In this document: positions 33,921-42,400 of the stretch, piece by piece | Layout of the letters: each line of letters starts with the position of its first letter | Numbering within the stretch: position 1 is the first letter of the stretch | Assembly: GCA_031835245.2 (NCBI GenBank) | Contig: JAVKOQ020000026.1 | Coordinates: 1-64,000, forward strand | Source: Balamuthia mandrillaris | Lineage: Eukaryota | DNA length: 64,000 nt | Direction of reading: 5' to 3' | Position numbers and translations under genes: made by a program | The notes under the pieces: generated by a model | Told to the model about the DNA's origin: nothing | The model's input: the letters and a program-made list of their open reading frames with translations, nothing else | The model's database searches: none

Positions 33921-34564
33921 ATGGAAAAAGAAACACTCGCCATGAGATGTCCCAATGGTACCTCGTCGTTCCCATTCTCCCATTCTCTCCGCTCCTCTGT
34001 GCATGCTTCTCATGTTTTCCGTTGCTTTCTCTGGGCGCAAAGACTCTTGCAACTGCAAAGCAGGCTGCAACTGTGGAACCAAGTGCCAATGCGGCTCCAA
34101 ACCCATCGAAAAGATGAGGTGCACCAACAGTACGTGTCTATTCTTGTTTCTTTTTTGTTCTTTGCCGAACGAGGAAAGAGTAACACTGAAAAAAAACAAA
34201 GACAACTGCGAGCACAGGAGTATGTGTAAGTGCGAAGGAGGCCGCTGCAAGTGCGGGTCTGCCACTGAGAGAGCTCCCAGAGCCTGCGGCAATCGTTCGT
34301 GTTCTTTTTTTTTGTTGCTCTCCTCCTGTGTGTCGCTTTATCCTTCTCACCACTTTTCCTATCTCACTTGGTTGCTGTTGTGCGTATCGTATTCGTTTCA
34401 TCCATGCAGCCAATTGCACCTGTGGCACGAACTGCACGTGCGGCCCGACGTGCCAATGTGGCACCAAGCACGGGGAGAAGCAGGCGTCCTCCACCAAGAA
34501 GGGAGAACAAGCCAAAATCCCGGGCGAGAGCCAAGGCAAGACACAAGCGGAAAAGATAAAGTAA
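33921..34564 (+). CDS. Metallothionein-like protein with three Cys-rich repeats, 4 exons
   Basis: Predicted spliced product MRCPN-DSCNCKAGCNCGTKCQCG..MRCTN-NNCEHRSMCKCEGGRCKCG..RACGN-PNCTCGTNCTCGPTCQCG; no aromatic residues. Confidence 0.75.
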
Positions 34565-34679
34565 GCCAGTCTTACAATGAACTTGTGAATAATGCAGAAA
34601 TAAAAGATAAGGGAGACCCTTTTCTTTCTTTCATTGAAAACATGAAATGTTCAACGTAAAGAAAGTAAGAAACGCCAAG

Positions 34680-35631
34680 TTACTTATCTTCAATGTAATG
34701 GGTAGCGGAGGGCTCCATGCGTGGCTCGCTTAGTTGGCTGAGCAGATGGTGGTGCGGCCACACCATCAACGTTTGGATGATACGTCCATCCCAGAAGTCC
34801 AAAATGGCCACACAGTCACTCACTTTGACAAAACGCCCTTTTATCCGAATCGTAGGTAAGCAACAAAAACAAACGACAAAGATAAGTAAGAAGGAGATAC
34901 CAGTGGCAGGCACGCCTTGATAAGTTCCAGTGTTGGTCCCAAAGAACTGGTAACGGATGACGACTTTTGAACCTGTCAAGTCACTTGATGGTATAAGTTC
35001 CAGGGAGCAACAGAACAAAGTCGAACGACGGATGCATATGCAAAACAAACGAGAGAGAGAGAGAGAGAGAGAACCACTACCGTCGGTGATGAGGTCATCA
35101 ACAAAATAGGAATAGTCAGAAAAGCTCGTGCGTGTCATGTCATTGTACTGCTGTAGACCATTGAGTCCGAGCAAAGGCCTCTTGAGCATCGGCGAAGAGA
35201 AGACGTGCTTGTCACTGATAAACTCCTCCGCGCGACTAAAGTCGTTGCCTGCCCAGATCTCAAACACTAAACGCAGAGCCTTGTCCTTGAGCTCCTGCCC
35301 TGTGGCAGATACTCGAGTTTCTGAGATGGCAACGAGAGAGAAGAGAGAGAGAGAACAGATTAGAAAGAAAGAAAACAGAAGGAACAACAGAAACAAAACA
35401 AGTGCAACAAATACCAATGGGCCGACTGGAGGTTTCGCATTGGCCACCGATGGTGCACCTGTAGGGACCTTCGTCCTTGGGAGGGGCGGGAGGCTCGCTC
35501 TCCCTGCAGGCGCCCTGTTCGGTGCACTCGAAGCCTATCCTCCCTTCCACCACCTGCCGAGAAGTACCACAGAACCAAACCACCACCAAGAACGACAAGA
35601 ACAAGCCCAACCTCCCCGCAAACACCTTCAT
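34680..35631 (-). CDS. SnoaL-like/NTF2-fold ester cyclase protein with signal peptide, multi-exon
   Basis: Hydrophobic N-terminus; FEIWAGND..SFSDY..DDLITDG-KVVIRY..GTNTGTYQGVPATG..FWDGRI. Confidence 0.75.
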
Positions 35632-36131
35632 GTCACTACGTGGCTGAACCTCTTGCTGCTACGTTTTTTGTTTCTTGGATGCACACAGCAACAGAAAAAA
35701 AAGAGGAGAGAGCGAAAATGGAAGAATTTTGAGGGGTGATTTGTGACGTGGACCAATGGGATTCGCGCGAACTGTAGATCAAGATTGCATAATGGAGCAG
35801 GTAAGGTACAGAATGTGTCTTTGATGTGTGCTCCCCACCCACAGATCGTATGTCTAGGAGATCACGATCATAACGTGGAGCAGTGAAAGTGCAGGAGGTG
35901 TCTTCAATTGGTGCACCTTACCGATCGGGAAAAAAAGGCGGGAAAAAATAATGAACAAAAAATCCACTTGGACGGATCCACTTTCTAACGACGTGAATCT
36001 AGATCAACAAAAAAGGAAAAAGTGCGAGTGGTTCACTAGCACCTCTCACGTCGTTAGAAACTAGAGCCAAATTTTTCCCCGAAAATATTTACAAAACAAA
36101 AAAACCAAAAAAGAAAAAAAAAGGAAAAAAA

Positions 36132-36707
36132 ATGGAGCGAAGTGGAGAAGCAGGGCAAGAAAAAAAGTGGGAGTGCGAGCACCAACGCTGCCATCACACC
36201 GGAAAAGATGGCCAACGAGTCCTCTATGCCTCTGCAAAAGCCATGTGGAAACATGAAAGAATGCAGCGCTATCATGGTTGCGATGCTGGTTGTCCCTCTT
36301 GCTTGCGTTGGGAGGGCAAAACAAAGGGCAAAGCACAACCAACAGAAGCATTCTTTCAGTGCCGACATACCAATGGATGTATCCGTCTGTTCAAGGTTGC
36401 TTGCACCCGCTCAACCCATGAGCTTCATGATGACCACGTTAATTGCTCTGAGGACTGCCAACGGTGCGAAGATTCGAGACACACAACAGCCTTCCTGCAA
36501 ATGGAGCGAGAAAAAGAAGAAGAAAAGAGACAAGAAAACGTCATGTATCAACGCAAAAAAGAGCTGGAGGAAATGAAGGAACGATGGATAGCAACAGAGA
36601 CTGGCAAAGTGTGTTGGAAGAAAACAAAAAAGAAAGGGAAGAAGTGTACCTCAAAGAGCAAGCAAAGGCCTTGTTGCGATGTCTCTGTCCCCAACAATCA
36701 TTCATGA
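36132..36707 (+). CDS. Tandem Cys/His zinc-finger module, probably the N-terminus of the downstream transposase (different frame)
   Basis: Two similar units: WECEHQRC..KHERMQRYHGCDAGCPSC and FQCRHTNGC..THELHDDHVNCSEDCQRC, followed by a coiled coil. Confidence 0.6.
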   Translation: MERSGEAGQEKKWECEHQRCHHTGKDGQRVLYASAKAMWKHERMQRYHGCDAGCPSCLRWEGKTKGKAQPTEAFFQCRHTNGCIRLFKVACTRSTHELHDDHVNCSEDCQRCEDSRHTTAFLQMEREKEEEKRQENVMYQRKKELEEMKERWIATETGKVCWKKTKKKGKKCTSKSKQRPCCDVSVPNNHS

Positions 36708-38503
36708 TGGCCCTTGGAGAGCTTGTAAAAAGCGATCCAGCTACGATCCACTATCTGAAAGAGCATATTAGCGAATTTCAAGAGCTTCAACAGCCACGCC
36801 ACCAACCTGCACTTTCAGTGTTACTTGCCTACAAAGAAACAGTTGGTATAACAGACAAGAACTGGAGATACACCATGTCTGTTTTCAACCTCGATGACTC
36901 CACCTCCATTCATCACCTCAACAAGCAAAAAGCAGCACTTATGGAATCCATGGAACCAAGAGTAACCCTCGGAGGGAATGGCTACGAATTGCCCCTTTTG
37001 CAATACATGAGCTGGGTGTTAGCACACAATCCTCCTCCAGAAAACAAACCAGGACAAAAGCACTTGGTGAAGTTTGCCTTTGATGGAGCCACCATGACCC
37101 AGGGCAAACGGAAAAAGCAAGAGATCGGCACCTTCAACTTCCTTTTTGATGGCCTCGAGTTAGCAAAAGCCAAGTCTGTAAACAACGCACACCAGTATCT
37201 CATTTTCCTCGGTGAGGAAGACAGAGAAGCACAGCTGGAACTACAGAATGCAGTGAAAGGGATAGAATACCTTGCTAACGGAGGAACTATTTGTGCCAAC
37301 GGTACCGAGTATGCTCTCGAGCCTGTGCTTGTGTGCGACATGGCAGCGTTGGTACATTTGCTTGGACTCTACAGTTGCTATCATCCAAACTCGAAGTGGA
37401 AGTGTCCTTGGTGCTGCGTTGACAAGCATTCAATCGCGAACTTTGCCATCGAGTGCTGGCCCTTGCGAAATGAAGCAGAAATGTGGAGAGATGGTGAGCA
37501 AGCAGAGAAGTGTGAATCTAAGAGTGGAAAAGATCGTTTTGCCCAGAAACACTTTGGGGTGCAAAACAAACCTTTGATCAACATTCTTCTTGACCACATC
37601 ATCCCCTGCATGCTACACTGCTTCATGGGAGTCATGCGCAAGCTGTTGGAACTGCTAATGGAGCAAGCACCTAACGATTCACCCCTTGCTGAAGGCTTCG
37701 AGAAATGCTTTGAGACGTTGAAGATGAAGTTACCGAAAGAAACCAAGAAGAAGAAGAAGGTCAAAACCTTGGAGCAACGGGTAAAGAAAGCAAGATTTGG
37801 CCGTTCAGACTATTTGCGTATTCTCGAGCAACGAGCTTTGTTTATGGCAGCACTAAGAAGGTCAGTGGGAGATGGGACAAGGACACAACAAACGGAAGAA
37901 ATATGGGAACTGTTTGCGAAACTTTATACCCTTGCTGCCCAGCCACAAGTCATAATAACAGAGGAGGAATGGCTAAAGATGGCGCGTGAGTTTGGTTTCA
38001 TGTTTAGCAAGCGATATGGAGAAGAGGAGGTAACGCCATACATACACGTTTTTGTTTACCACGTTGGATTTTATTTGCACAAGTACGGATCGGTGGAAAA
38101 GTTCGCCAACTATGCAGACGAGAGTCGCCACTCCAGAAACAAGAAAGCACCAACTAGTGGATATGGAGGGAGAAAAGGAGAGAGGAAGGTATGTTATCAA
38201 CAACTAGCCTTTGCCTTCCGCCAAGAAAAGTACCTCTTCGACAAGACATTGCCTGAGCCTCAACGGAAAAGGCAACGAACACAGAAGCCCAATGTCAACT
38301 GGGCATCACGGAATATTTGTTTACATCCAGAGATGCAGCAGTATGTTGGCTCAGCTCAGCTTCAAGAAGAAGAAGAAGAAGAAGAAGAAGAAGAAAAAGA
38401 AGAAGAAAAAGAAAAAGAAGAAGAAGAAGAAGAAGAGAAAGAAGAAGAAGAAGAAAAAGAAGAAGAAGTGGAGAAGGAGAAAGAAAAGGAAGAAGAGATG
38501 TAA
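36584..38503 (+). CDS. RAG1/Transib-like DDE transposase core
   Basis: Ordered motifs AFDG (D at 37082), VCDMAAL (D at 37337), CPWC, CMLHCFMG, TPYIHVFVYH and NYADESRH (E at 38120) parallel RAG1 CDG, YDEK, CTLC, DALHCDIG, TNYFHKTLAH and SEGNESGN. Confidence 0.75.
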   Translation: MDSNRDWQSVLEENKKEREEVYLKEQAKALLRCLCPQQSFMMALGELVKSDPATIHYLKEHISEFQELQQPRHQPALSVLLAYKETVGITDKNWRYTMSVFNLDDSTSIHHLNKQKAALMESMEPRVTLGGNGYELPLLQYMSWVLAHNPPPENKPGQKHLVKFAFDGATMTQGKRKKQEIGTFNFLFDGLELAKAKSVNNAHQYLIFLGEEDREAQLELQNAVKGIEYLANGGTICANGTEYALEPVLVCDMAALVHLLGLYSCYHPNSKWKCPWCCVDKHSIANFAIECWPLRNEAEMWRDGEQAEKCESKSGKDRFAQKHFGVQNKPLINILLDHIIPCMLHCFMGVMRKLLELLMEQAPNDSPLAEGFEKCFETLKMKLPKETKKKKKVKTLEQRVKKARFGRSDYLRILEQRALFMAALRRSVGDGTRTQQTEEIWELFAKLYTLAAQPQVIITEEEWLKMAREFGFMFSKRYGEEEVTPYIHVFVYHVGFYLHKYGSVEKFANYADESRHSRNKKAPTSGYGGRKGERKVCYQQLAFAFRQEKYLFDKTLPEPQRKRQRTQKPNVNWASRNICLHPEMQQYVGSAQLQEEEEEEEEEEKEEEKEKEEEEEEEKEEEEEKEEEVEKEKEKEEEM

Positions 38504-38874
38504 AGAAAAGGAAAAATAAAGATCAGTACCAAAGACCAACACAAGAGAAAAGAGAGAAGAAAAGAGAGAGGAAAACAGGAGAAAGGAAAACAGGAGAAAG
38601 GAAGAGGAAGAGAGGAAGAGAGGAAGAGAAAAAGAGAGGAAGAAGAAGACAGGAGAGAAGAGAGAATAGAAGAGAAGCAGAAACGAGAAAGGAGAGAGAA
38701 GAGAAAGAAGAAGAAGAGAGGAAGAGAGGAAAAGAAGAAGATAGGAGAGAGAGGAGAGAAAAGGAAGAGAGAAGAGACAGAAGAGAGCAAGGAGAAAGAG
38801 GAGCGAAAAGAAAAGAGAGGAAGAGAGAGGAATAAGAGGAGAGAGGAGAAAGGATAGAAGAAAGGATTTTGTAC

Positions 38875-39322
38875 CTGCTTCGGGCCATTGGAGAACATGT
38901 GATCGATTGTACACTGCATAAAATATGGTGAACTTTGTTTTGTTCTTCAGACGTTTGATATGTAAAGGGGGCTGCAGCTTCGCATAAGAACCACGCTCAT
39001 AGGTGATGCAGCTATTCTCTCCAAAGATCTCCTCGATCTGTTGCAAGGAAGAAAGGGTGGTCTCAAACTCACCGAAAAACAGTTGATGGAGGGCACTGCT
39101 GAGCTCAACTGAGAATCGGAGAGGTAAATCCCGTGGTTTCCTTGTTACTCGCTTTTTGAGCGCTGGGCCGACGGTGTCTTGCACTATTTGCACTATTGTT
39201 TGCCGCTCCAATACTACATACGGACCACATATGAAAGGAACCGCAGAAGCCTTAAAAATAAGCTGAACACACTGTGCTTCCTCCTCAGTTGATGTGCTCT
39301 GTACGGCCGCCGCAGTGCTCAT
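38875..39322 (-). CDS. Unknown ORF convergent with the RAG1-like transposase (~150 aa of complex sequence; 3' end uncertain)
   Basis: ATG at 39322, open non-repetitive reading frame MSTAAAV..QWPEA up to a possible GTAC splice donor at 38874. Confidence 0.5.
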
Positions 39323-39465
39323 TTTGTCTTCCCTTCTTCTTCTTTTTTTTTTCAAGGACGACACGACAGATCTCATCAGGATCCACTTTCTATATTCTCA
39401 TGACGACCCGACCCCTTAATTCCAAGTAAAAAAGAAAAAAGAGTAGCGAAAACGTAGCGAGAGGG

Positions 39466-42400
39466 ATGCGTTGTGTGGTGTGTCAGAGCGAGGCCTTCTC
39501 GCAGACGGAATACGGTTTCTACGTTTGCGATGCTTGCGGAACACAGTCACAGGTACTACTACCACTAGCTACGCGACCGTTTGGCATGTTTGTGTGTGCA
39601 GGGTGCTGACACCTCAATAACAGGACTTTGTCCAAGAGGCTTCGGAGTTCAATGAATATATAGCACTGAAAGTAGTGCAGATTAACAAGCCCAAGAAAAA
39701 AAAACAAAAGACACAAAGTCCTCTCCCTCTCTCCCTCTTTCATTGTTGTTTGTCTTTCTCTTTCTCTCTTTCTCTTTCTCTTGCTCGCTTGCTCTCCATT
39801 AACTCACTCCTGTGTGTATTGTAGAAGGGTTGAAAGGAGGCCTAGAATTTTTGTTGGAGGTCTTCCAACGCCTTCTCATGGCACAAGCGGAGAAGCTCAT
39901 TACCGACTTCGGAGTCTCTCCGCTGTTATATCCGCTGGTAGCTCGGCTGTGGTTTGAGTATCTCGATCTACGCAAGTATCGGCCCACTTGCTTCACCTCG
40001 TTTGGCGTCTACGTCCGTAAATCTAAAGGAAGACAAAAAGTAAAGAAGCCCGAAGAGCAAACAGCAGTAGAAGATGATGATGAAGAGGCGGAGGAGGAGA
40101 AGGATAAAGACAAGGAGGAGGAAGACGAAGAAGATGAAGAAGGCGGAGAACCTGTCGACGATGCTGATTCATCTGACGGTGAAAAAAAACAAACAACACA
40201 AGAAACAAGAAAGCCACGCCGAAGGACAAGGAATTTTGGTGCCATCGATTATAGCTTGGAAGCGTTTCTGGAAAACTCGGAGGAGGAGGAAGAAACTGCC
40301 GAACTAGACAGAGAGCGGCACAGACTAGTAAAGCCAACGACGGAGGAAGAACAGGCTGACAAATCAATTGATCAACAAAACGAAGCTAGAGAATGGCTGA
40401 AAGAGTTTGGAGGGTGGGGCGACCAAAACGAACATGAGATGGAGCAAATGGAAGATGATGAAGAAGAGGAAGAGGAGGAGGAAGAAGACGACGACGACGA
40501 AGATGAAGAGGGACTAAGTAGCGAAGAGTTGGAAAGGAAACGCAGAGAAGAAAAGGCATTCCGTGATAAGAGAAAGAGACCATTTGGACTTAAATCTCCA
40601 CAAGTAGCGATGGAGCACGATAACTTTCCTGCATTGTTCAACACACTAACCCTCCCTTATTTTGCTTGTCTCTTATTAAGAGAACCGATTCCCTTGAACC
40701 GCTACTTGGGGTACTTCTTTGCGTTATCCTCTCTTTTTAGATGTTTCCTTGCCGTATAACGATATCACCCCTTCAGGTGGATTCGCCAAGGCTTGCTTCC
40801 TCATGTGGGACAAATAGCAGAAGAACTACGTAAAGACAACCAACGCATAGCGGGAAAGTACATCACTATATTATCACCATTTGTTCGTTCATTTTTCTGT
40901 GTTTCTTGCTCTTTTACGACCTTGCTCACTTCTTTATCTTCAAACAGAGTTTTCCCAGCGTAAAACGGTTCATGTTACATCTTAGGCTTGTCTCTCTCTT
41001 CTTCAAAGTGCAAATACCTGTTCCTCTTGTAGGCCCCATGCTTCGCAACATTTGTCAAGACTTGGAGCTTCCTCCTATCATGGCTGACCTTTCTTATCGG
41101 ATATACTGCTTCTTCAAGCTGAACAATCTCATTGCAGACGAAGAGTGGTTTATTGGTAGGAAAACTATCACTCTGGACATGCTCGTTGCCGTCTTTCTTG
41201 TGATTGCCCTGAAGCTATGTTATCTATTTCATGATTTTATTCCTCCACCTACCAAGTCTTCAACACCGTCTTCAACTTCTACGTATTCGGAGGTCGATCC
41301 AAGCAAGCTGTTTGCAGGCGACAGAGAAGACTTTCTTCAATGCATCCCTTCGCTGGAGGAATGGTTCCACAAAATTCGCCACCGACGTCTATTTGAACGA
41401 CGAAAACGCCATCTACCAGAGGGCGCTCCATTTTTTAGCAGGTCCCCTCTCCTCTCTCCTCTTGCTGATTCATCATACTGATTTCTTGTTTTGGAACTTA
41501 GCGAGTTGTGGGAGCTTCCCAAAGAAAAGCTTGGCGTATATTATGAGTTCTGTCGTGACCACATCTTTCCGCGTTGGGCCAACCCGCCCAAAGGTTCTTC
41601 ATTTCTCTTTGCCATTCCTTTTATTTCCATTTTTATTTCCAGGTCCTTACATTCATGGCATAAATTTCATTTTCAAGTTGCTGGTTCAGATAGCACTCGG
41701 GATATTTTTGAAAAACATGACGAACAGGAGCAGGACAAGGAAGAAGCGCAACTAGACGAGGACGTACCGGGTGTTCCTATTCCTGCGACACCCATAAAAC
41801 GTATCATCAGCTACCAAACTCCTGATTTATCATCGTCTTCTCAACTTGGAAAAGGCACAAAACGGAAGCGAAGTCCTAAGAGTAGAACTTCAACAACACG
41901 TAAGACTTCCCCTGCTGATTCTTCCGTTGCTGCTGCTGCTTCTTCTGCTGCTCCATCTTCTTCTTCGTTCTCTTGGGTTCCTTATCCTGTTTCTCCTTCT
42001 GTCACGGCTGCTGCTGCCGCTGCTGCTGCCGCCGTTGCCGCTGCTGCCTCGACTTCTACTTCTACTGTCCCAACAGGCTCCCGGCCAGCGCGTTCTCGCA
42101 GAAGCCCTTATGACATCGCCACGTTTGAGTATAGTTCAAAAGGAACGGGGGAGGAAGCCCAACTTCTTCCGTCACAACCACAATCACCTCCTCAAGTAGT
42201 CCCGCTGACACAAGCACCTTTGGTGGAGAATGTCATTCCATCTCCCATGCAAAAATTTCCAGCTAACCCTCGAGGCTCAAGGAAATATACAAAACTGGAA
42301 GAAACACAGCCAAAGAAGCGCGGCAAAAAGATTCCAAGACCAGAAGTGACAGATGAGATACTTTTGAAACAACGACAATGGGGCAGCACCAAACATGACA

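What the first reader, a model, noticed from the sequence alone, without database searches (positions are those of the whole stretch)
35974..39392. RAG1/Transib-like transposase cassette with a convergent partner gene in a protist
Seen: an intronless 640-codon ORF carrying, in order, equivalents of the RAG1 catalytic D, D and E and the ZnC2/ZnH2 ligands (CPWC; H..H in TPYIHVFVYH). It is preceded by zinc fingers, followed tail-to-tail by a second ORF, and the whole unit is inserted between two divergent host genes. Known: Transib/RAG-like transposases share these motifs, and ProtoRAG has tail-to-tail RAG1L-RAG2L. Inference: an undescribed two-gene branch of the RAG/Transib superfamily in amoebae with atypical ends; best candidate for a new system in this window.
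Basis: partly seen in the sequence, partly recalled or inferred. Interest (0 to 1): 0.9.

Follow-up and report, generated by a model that had tools for sequence, protein, structure and literature searches.

The report
Amoeba RAG1-like transposon with novel partner
A 3.5-kb DNA element in the amoeba Balamuthia, present at this site in some genomes and absent in others, carries a transposase predicted to fold like the antibody-gene recombinase RAG1 and, tail to tail with it, a small conserved gene that is not RAG2 and likely helps the element jump.

Summary
It starts CACTTGGA, ends TCCAAGT (terminal G missing), and another run of the species holds the exact empty site; three other contigs show different flanks at the same left boundary. 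The transposase model matches RAG1 (Z 25.6), ProtoRAG (23.6) and Transib (23.4). The 640-codon ORF is only the core: the full ~790-aa gene starts at 36132 with two zinc fingers and this copy is frameshifted. The convergent ORF is a conserved 150-180-aa protein with no known family, found tail to tail with the transposase in 6 of 10 testable metagenome elements and in Acanthamoeba. It is not RAG2. Transposase relatives occur in Planoprotostelium and dictyostelids. A spliced antisense RNA covers the transposase. Open: no target-site duplication seen, partner function untested, no tree against reference Transib/RAG1, and the unclassified Dictyostelium DDT elements could be the same family. This scan earlier noted RAG1-like transposons with a small partner in Naegleria (unchecked). 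Verdict: new two-gene variant of the Transib/RAG1 (CMCT) kind.

The parts
35965..39427 (.). Whole transposon, 3463 bp
   Evidence: Run X20 joins 35964 directly to 30 letters identical to 39428-39457; X1 element contig begins exactly at 35965
35965..35972 (+). Left terminal inverted repeat CACTTGGA
   Evidence: Three contigs (two in X1, one in X4) carry other flanks before 35965; left ends of L003 and L001 align
35974..35987 (+). Subterminal motif GGATCCACTTTCTA, likely a transposase-binding site (inferred)
   Evidence: Repeated at 39379-39392, 0 of 300 shuffles reach 14 nt; GGATCCACTTT at the same offset in L003
35982..36060 (.). 15-bp perfect inverted repeat (arms 35982-35996 and 36046-36060) inside the left end
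   Evidence: shorter arms (9 and 6 nt) at a similar place in L003 and L001
36132..36599 (+). Transposase N-terminal part: two Cys/His zinc-finger repeats (C2H2-like) and a charged helix
   Evidence: 99% identical to residues 1-156 of in-frame copy P0014; 15 invariant columns, mostly C/H, in 5 elements; weak match to ZIC3 fingers E 0.007
36595..36604 (+). Frameshift: this copy is offset by 2 nt relative to in-frame database copies
   Evidence: tblastn of P0014 splits into two frames at 36599; P0001, P0013, P0014 read through, the P0012 model skips the site; the X1 majority contig shows no correcting gap
36584..38503 (+). Transposase core (639-aa ORF): DDBD, pre-RNH, RNase H with D167 (37082), D252 (37337), E513 (38120); ZnB with C274/C277 (37403, 37412), H345 (37616), H488/H493 (38045, 38060); poly-Glu tail
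   Evidence: AlphaFold pLDDT 90.9; Foldseek RAG1 E 1.8e-15; Z 25.6 over 454 residues; profile hits BbRAG1L E 5.4e-8; conservation
35965..38360 (-). Spliced antisense transcript across the transposase (9 joints, 8 introns with one alternative donor), no ORF over 118 aa
   Evidence: Run X4 contigs skip CT..AC or CT..GC segments on the plus strand; translation. Strand inferred from the splice signals
38504..38875 (.). Purine-rich low-complexity spacer; on the minus strand part of a predicted intron of the partner gene
   Evidence: sequence; donor after codon 149 and acceptor at 38360 as in gene model P0167; not tested with reads
38876..39322 (-). Partner gene, conserved 149 codons (about 170 aa if spliced as predicted); no known family
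   Evidence: Homologues tail to tail with the transposase in L001, L003, L004, L005/9/11, L008/10, L012; Acanthamoeba ACA1_023090; no Pfam, PDB or Atlas assignment
39379..39392 (+). Second copy of the subterminal motif, 35 nt from the right end, in the same orientation as the left copy
39421..39427 (+). Right terminal inverted repeat TCCAAGT; terminal G absent; no target-site duplication against the empty allele
   Evidence: relatives L003 and L004 end in full GTG
34680..35631 (-). Host gene, SnoaL-like, spliced; start 334 nt left of the element
   Evidence: Pfam SnoaL E 9e-7; introns in X14 and X4
39466..41481 (+). Host gene, TAF1B/Rrn7-like; ATG 38 nt right of the element; 3' end not delimited
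   Evidence: Zn_ribbon_RRN7 E 1.5e-7; Rrn7_cyclin_N E 0.002

Best explanation
This is a 3463-bp, multi-copy, insertion-polymorphic DNA element with CAC-type inverted ends that encodes a transposase predicted to have the RAG1/Transib fold and, tail to tail, a conserved 150-180-aa non-RAG2 protein that likely serves as its dedicated transposition cofactor. Shown: boundaries, empty site, several flanks, conserved two-gene layout, frameshift in this copy. Predicted: RNase H DDE core with ZnB insertion. Inferred from RAG/Transib chemistry: the transposase binds both ends (zinc fingers on the subterminal GGATCC motif, core on the terminal heptamer), nicks and forms hairpins on the flanking DNA, and inserts the freed ends elsewhere, here into A/T-rich intergenic DNA. 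Inferred and untested: the partner works at the transposase-DNA complex, possibly on the two helices between CPWC and LH that occupy the place of RAG1's RAG2-binding region. This copy is likely non-autonomous, moved by in-frame copies; overlapping and read-through antisense RNA from the partner strand likely dampens transposase expression.
For: Empty site exact to 30 of 30 letters in X20, which has almost no depth inside the element; three contigs with other flanks at 35965; element contig depth 528 against 33-81 for the other seven listed X1 pieces, though the tool warns depth is no copy number. Five NCBI transposase accessions in one 90% cluster on at least four contigs and two partner accessions. 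Fold: RAG1 Z 25.6, BbRAG1L 23.6, HzTransib 23.4, P element 12.3, Hermes 8.3. Complete relatives with CAC...GTG inverted ends: L003 (20-3178) and L004 (4-4609). Partner: leave-one-out profile finds each of 7 members, E 2e-9 to 1e-39 among 2552 six-frame segments, always minus strand, downstream; stop codons 11 and 38 nt apart in L001 and L003. Helices 297-308 and 313-322 lie between CPWC and LH and this stretch aligns to BbRAG1L; Tao 2022 (PMC9435367) names such a region as the RAG2-binding one, lost in subgroup II Transibs. Nine antisense splice joints, none on the sense strand.
Against: No target-site duplication at the one locus with an empty allele, and the terminal G is missing; L003 and L004 flanks show none either but may come from different copies. 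Flanks are A/T-rich, whereas RAG and Transib targets are GC-rich (PMC10629977). The partner was not detected in 4 of 10 testable elements (L006/7, L013/14, L015/16, L017), so it may be dispensable or lineage-limited. No evidence of any kind on what the partner binds. HMMER put E513 on the first Glu of BbRAG1L's SEGNE; only counting from the shared GSV motif puts it on the second; D167 and D252 lie outside that alignment. No sense-strand transposase RNA was shown. Sequence identity to RAG1 is only 12-15%.
Confidence: 0.68

Rival explanations
1. The element is as described, but the partner is a regulator or anti-silencing factor, or mainly a source of antisense RNA, and does not act in the transposition complex.
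For: Missing from 4 of 10 testable elements; other cargo occurs in the family (a Tet/JBP-like ORF beside L001, E 0.034, below cut-off; a PD-(D/E)XK gene in L006); abundant spliced antisense RNA on the partner strand; fungal CMCT elements carry TET/JBP genes thought to counter silencing (PMC12730594).
Against: The partner is conserved as a protein at 23-31% identity with shared motifs across hosts and keeps a fixed position; it has no enzyme-like or known regulatory family match.
Confidence: 0.3
2. It is a separate lineage of the wider CMCT clade (like ESTA, Plavaka, Chapaev, EnSpm) that resembles RAG1 only because RAG1 and Transib are the solved representatives; it is no closer to RAG than those are.
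For: Kojima 2025 (PMC12730594): all CMCT lineages share the C(2)C and H(3-4)H motifs and CA..TG ends, and ESTA also matches RAG1 by HHpred. No Pfam RAG1 hit for any of 84 members at E 0.05. No CCGHC tail, RING or kelch partner.
Against: The family profile finds BbRAG1L by sequence (E 5.4e-8, the only hit under E 1 among 177635 PDB sequences); structural match covers about 455 residues from DDBD to CTD, and three RAG1 entries also align helices 31-70 with the nonamer-binding region at lower Z; no EnSpm or Plavaka Pfam hit either.
Confidence: 0.3
3. The family is already on record as the Dictyostelium DDT transposons, described but never classified; the new part would then be the RAG1-type fold.
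For: Transposase homologues occur in Heterostelium and Acytostelium; D. discoideum DNA transposons including DDT are said to resemble no known transposase (PMC5633606); that DDT-A/B carry two ORFs is recalled, not read.
Against: None of the 30 clusters looked up was named D. discoideum or DDT; DDT-B is 5471 bp (PMC9012585) against 3.2-4.6 kb here; dictyostelid homologues are long branches far from this element.
Confidence: 0.25
4. A domesticated, single-locus host gene pair; extra database entries are haplotigs.
For: Amoeba assemblies can hold haplotype duplicates; the NCBI models carry host-gene names.
Against: Exact empty site, different flanks at one boundary, absence from a whole run, terminal inverted repeats in three elements, a frameshift in this copy.
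Confidence: 0.03

Closest known systems
RAGL/ProtoRAG transposons (BbeRAG1L-RAG2L; AanRAGL of Aureococcus)
   Same: RAG1-type core fold (Z 23.6 to 6b40; profile E 5.4e-8), two helices at the RAG2-binding position, CAC ends with asymmetric subterminal motifs, second gene tail to tail as in ProtoRAG, polymorphic insertions
   Different: Partner is 150-180 aa, no kelch propeller or PHD; C2H2-like N-terminal fingers instead of C1-C3/RING; no Cx2Cx3GHx4C tail; no 5-bp duplication seen; A/T-rich flanks; only 12% identity
Transib (HzTransib; subgroups I and II of Tao 2022)
   Same: Fold (Z 23.4 to 6pqx), DDE and ZnB motifs, CAC termini; L001 begins CACTGTG
   Different: Second gene; N-terminal zinc fingers; longer ZnC2 region than subgroup II; heptamer variable (CACTTGG, CACTGCG, CACTTCG); duplication not seen
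Other CMCT lineages: EnSpm/CACTA, Chapaev, ESTA, Plavaka, Lanisha (Kojima 2025)
   Same: C(2)C and H(3-4)H motifs, CA..TG ends; some carry TET/JBP cargo; EnSpm has a second end-binding protein (recalled)
   Different: No Pfam match to EnSpm or Plavaka models; no TA duplication as in ESTA; partner unrelated to any Pfam family
Dictyostelium DDT elements
   Same: Amoebozoan, unclassified DNA transposons; two ORFs (recalled)
   Different: Longer (DDT-B 5471 bp); homology untested because no DDT sequence was available

Membership tests
CMCT clade (Transib/RAG1, EnSpm, Chapaev and kin) | RNase H DDE transposase with C(2)C and H(3-4)H motifs between second D and E | tested here: met
CMCT clade (Transib/RAG1, EnSpm, Chapaev and kin) | CA..TG termini | tested here: met
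   CAC left ends in window, L001, L003, L004; GTG right ends in L003, L004; window right end lacks the last G
CMCT clade (Transib/RAG1, EnSpm, Chapaev and kin) | 2-5-bp target-site duplication | tested here: inconclusive
   None at the window locus, whose right end is damaged; L003 and L004 have only 3 nt on one side and may join flanks of different copies
CMCT clade (Transib/RAG1, EnSpm, Chapaev and kin) | Mobility (multiple copies, empty sites) | tested here: met
Transib proper | 5-bp, GC-rich duplication | tested here: inconclusive
   Not seen at one damaged locus; flanks A/T-rich
Transib proper | Single transposase gene, no RAG2-like or other partner | tested here: not met
   Conserved second gene
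Transib proper | Phylogenetic placement within Transib subgroup I or II | not testable with these tools
   No reference Transib or RAG1 sequences were available as stored proteins; the tree holds family members only
RAGL/ProtoRAG | Second gene convergent with the transposase | tested here: met
RAGL/ProtoRAG | Second gene is a six-bladed kelch propeller with PHD finger (RAG2L) | tested here: not met
   149-180 aa, no kelch or PHD hit for 9 of 9 members, no PDB hit under E 0.9, no Cys/His cluster
RAGL/ProtoRAG | CTT* tail with Cx2Cx3GHx4C | tested here: not met
   Absent from the C-termini of the 15 proteins in alignment A2, some of which are truncated; a W..R..(H)P tail is found instead
RAGL/ProtoRAG | NBD*-like region and alpha11-alpha12 (RAG2-binding) region | tested here: inconclusive
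   Two helices at the alpha11-12 position; NBD aligned in 3 of 33 listed RAG-type rows at higher rmsd, no GRP motif
ESTA | TA duplication | tested here: not met
   Left flanks end TC (window), TT (L003), CT (L001), CG (L004), AA (X4)
EnSpm/Plavaka | Match to family profile models | tested here: inconclusive
   No such Pfam hit in 84 members at E 0.05 or 8 full-length proteins at E 10; distant membership not excluded
Dictyostelium DDT | Homology to DDT ORF1 and ORF2 | not testable with these tools
   Primary paper not held; no DDT sequence obtained

The most novel reading that the evidence does not exclude
Amoebozoa carry a currently mobile, two-component RAG-type recombinase in which a RAG1-fold transposase has recruited a small partner unrelated to RAG2 that docks where RAG2 docks. 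The RAG1 lineage would then have acquired an obligate cofactor twice independently, in the same tail-to-tail layout, and this family may integrate without the 5-bp duplication that defines its relatives.
Probability: 0.27. Interest if true: 0.88.

Novelty: new variant of a known kind. Interest (0 to 1): 0.7.

Why it matters
How the RAG1 enzyme of vertebrate V(D)J recombination gained its partner RAG2 is an open question; current models have a single capture of RAG2L by a Transib (PMC9435367, PMC10629977). A recently mobile protist family with a RAG1-like core and a different, conserved tail-to-tail partner makes it testable whether the RAG2-binding surface is a general cofactor dock older than RAG2. 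It also supplies compact 3.2-kb natural elements for biochemistry, extends the clade to Amoebozoa, may classify long-orphaned amoebozoan DNA transposons, and corrects NCBI names (myosin VIIb-like, caldesmon). Strain-specific presence makes it a possible typing marker.

Tried and rejected
No whole genome is held for this window, so copies could not be collected directly. Reads could be laid only on 34400-38580: the partner gene and right junction were not covered, so partner expression, its predicted intron and right ends of other copies stay open. No RNA holder was listed; run X14 (RNA) had about one read pair in the element and shares several variants with element-free X20, so it is uninformative. 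Single-sequence searches of the transposase found nothing in Pfam or PDB. Partner fold: single-sequence AlphaFold failed (pLDDT 36) and was not searched; Atlas gave no usable hit and only leads under 0.9 or TM under 0.4; no similarity between partner and transposase profiles. No relatives in viral contigs, prokaryote genomes, plasmids or viral structures (best E 0.01); the one viral motif match L019 has no transposase or partner and is taken as chance. Rejected: the 14-bp direct repeat as element ends or as a long duplication (it is internal); a programmed frameshift (in-frame copies exist and relatives keep the T-D-W register); a long ORF in the antisense RNA; RAG2 homology. The tree is the quick version, 45 rows covering at least 330 profile positions, with long-branch warnings, and has no outgroup.
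Full report
Observation. The window holds a 639-aa ORF at 36584-38503 (+), a 191-aa Cys/His-rich ORF at 36132-36707 (+) overlapping it in another frame, and a minus-strand ORF at 39376-38351. The best protein hit is a Balamuthia mandrillaris protein at 98% identity, named myosin VIIb-like. The flanking genes are a minus-strand SnoaL-like gene and a plus-strand TAF1B/Rrn7-like gene.

Gene structure. Database copies P0001, P0013 and P0014 read from the zinc-finger ORF straight into the core; tblastn of P0014 splits on the window into residues 1-156 and 156-735, offset by 2 nt at 36599. Relatives keep the in-frame register, so this copy is frameshifted rather than recoded; the P0012 model skips the site, and the majority contig of run X1 shows no correcting gap, so defective copies are probably common. 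The N-terminus has two Cys/His repeats with a weak match to C2H2 fingers.

Boundaries and mobility. Four runs were laid on 34400-38580; the right third of the element was not covered. In X20 the left flank ends at 35964 and continues with 30 letters identical to window 39428-39457, with almost no depth inside the element: an empty site. In X1 a 2429-nt contig begins exactly at 35965 at depth 528, against 33-81 for the other seven listed X1 pieces (the tool warns that depth is no copy number), and two X1 contigs and one X4 contig carry other flanks before 35965. X1 also appears to hold an empty allele. NCBI lists five transposase accessions in one 90% cluster and two partner accessions. The insert is 35965-39427, CACTTGGA...TCCAAGT. 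Against the empty allele there is no target-site duplication and the last G is missing; a secondary lesion at this end and duplication-free insertion both fit.

Fold. AlphaFold with 84 sequences gave pLDDT 90.9. Foldseek ranks RAG1 first (E 1.8e-15), then BbRAG1L (5.9e-10), HzTransib (1.1e-9) and P element (5e-4). VIA-align gives RAG1 Z 25.6 (454 residues, rmsd 4.2), BbRAG1L 23.6, HzTransib 23.4, P element 12.3, Hermes 8.3. The family profile hits BbRAG1L at E 5.4e-8 and nothing else under E 1. In that alignment HMMER set E513 on the first Glu of SEGNE; counting from the shared GSV motif it falls on the second. The first two Asp lie outside that alignment, so their roles rest on invariance and fold. 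Two helices (297-308, 313-322) lie between CPWC and LH, the position that Tao 2022 describes as the RAG2-binding region lost in subgroup II Transibs; the equivalence is my inference. Caveat: Kojima 2025 shows these motifs are shared by the whole CMCT clade and that ESTA also matches RAG1, so the fold alone does not place the family inside Transib/RAG.

Family. 555 proteins among 1.84 billion representatives match at E 0.001 or better; 150 were listed. Of 30 clusters looked up, named ones came from Balamuthia, Acanthamoeba castellanii, Planoprotostelium, Heterostelium and Acytostelium; most of the rest have no name. A metagenome scan gave 18 loci, which collapse to 12 elements by DNA identity. 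L003 (20-3178) and L004 (4-4609) are complete, with CAC...GTG inverted repeats of 7 and 10 exact bases; the left ends of the window, L003 and L001 share CACT..GA.GGA.CCA. Flanks seen are mostly A/T-rich.

Partner. The conserved part is 149 codons (39322-38876). A profile finds homologues on the minus strand downstream of the transposase in 6 of the 12 elements (L001, L003, L004, L005/9/11, L008/10, L012); two (L002, L018) have under 300 nt downstream and cannot be judged; four (L006/7, L013/14, L015/16, L017) have 900 nt or more and no hit. Leave-one-out searches recover each of 7 members at E 2e-9 or better. The Acanthamoeba protein ACA1_023090 is in the family. Identity is 23-31%. It has no Pfam, PDB or Atlas assignment and is too short for a kelch propeller. 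In L001 and L003 the two stop codons are 11 and 38 nt apart, so the transcripts very likely overlap. In the window a low-complexity spacer has grown between the genes and the partner runs into a predicted intron.

Antisense RNA. Run X4 is listed as DNA? but skips two host introns also skipped in RNA run X14 and has no depth at 35660-35939, so I read it as RNA. Its contigs show nine joints in the transposase region, all with minus-strand GT..AG or GC..AG signals and none with plus-strand signals. The spliced product has no ORF over 118 aa. It lies on the partner's strand; whether it starts at the partner promoter or in a host gene next to another copy is not shown.

Mechanism. Shown: a multi-copy, polymorphic element with inverted ends and two linked genes. 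Predicted: RAG1/Transib fold. From established RAG/Transib chemistry (nick-hairpin cleavage, PMC10629977), cut-and-paste movement is inferred. The partner's role is inferred from fixed linkage and protein conservation; I put a role at the transposition complex near 50%, regulation or anti-silencing near 30%.

Literature. Ten searches listed no paper describing a RAG1/Transib-type two-gene element in Amoebozoa; the library lacks most subscription journals and Repbase. Read: PMC9435367 whole main text and its one held supplement by term search, with no hit for ten amoeba names or terms (figures and other files not held may list more species); passages of PMC10629977, PMC4411706, PMC7204232, PMC12730594 (108, abstract 109), PMC5633606, PMC9012585, PMC4559204, PMC12405889, PMC3417536. 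The original DDT description was not held; that DDT has two ORFs and that EnSpm has a second end-binding protein are recalled. Two earlier notes of this scan report RAG1-like transposons with a small partner in Naegleria; I did not test them, and the partner described there (213 aa, Cys/His-rich) may be a different protein.

Verdict. A real, recently mobile, two-gene DNA transposon of the Transib/RAG1 (CMCT) kind with a partner unlike RAG2. It works like Transib/RAGL by inference; it is not a RAGL (kelch partner and CCGHC tail not met) and not a canonical Transib (second gene). New variant of a known kind; interest 0.7.

Noticed in passing
window 35631-35964 and 39428-39466: The element sits in the short intergenic region shared by two divergent genes, 38 nt upstream of the TAF1B/Rrn7-like ATG, so it separates this RNA polymerase I factor gene from its upstream DNA on this allele. 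Run X1 appears to hold an empty allele too (loose end at 35948).
   Followed up: partly
L001:3314-4111 (+): A 2-oxoglutarate/Fe dioxygenase-like ORF (Tet_JBP E 0.034, below cut-off) lies head to head with the partner gene; no right end was found between them, so it may be cargo, as in fungal TET-bearing transposons.
   Followed up: partly
L006:4477-5412 (-), also L007: A PD-(D/E)XK Rpn-like nuclease gene (PDDEXK_2 E 5e-14) is convergent with the transposase where other elements have the partner.
   Followed up: no
proteins P0005/P0009, P0010/P0017, P0032/P0180-P0182, P0042: Balamuthia holds at least four further, divergent subfamilies of this transposase; X20, which lacks this element, has short matches that look like such relatives.
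   Followed up: partly
alignment A1 members: Accessory domains in some homologues: SAP in 3 of 84, Ulp1 protease in 1, SWIM in 1.
   Followed up: no
window 33955-34560 (+): Small Cys-rich, metallothionein-like spliced gene just left of the SnoaL-like gene; no Pfam hit on the unspliced ORF.
   Followed up: no
window 37839-37862: NCBI models P0001 and P0014 remove a 21-nt GT..AG segment as an intron that is coding in P0012 and in relatives; probably an annotation artefact.
   Followed up: no
window 37230: This copy lacks 3 nt (one codon) present in the X1 majority contig and in the NCBI copies.
   Followed up: yes
run X4, record 19: The antisense transcript runs 1110 nt past the element's left end into a flank unlike this window, so it comes from another copy and reads out into host DNA.
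   Followed up: no
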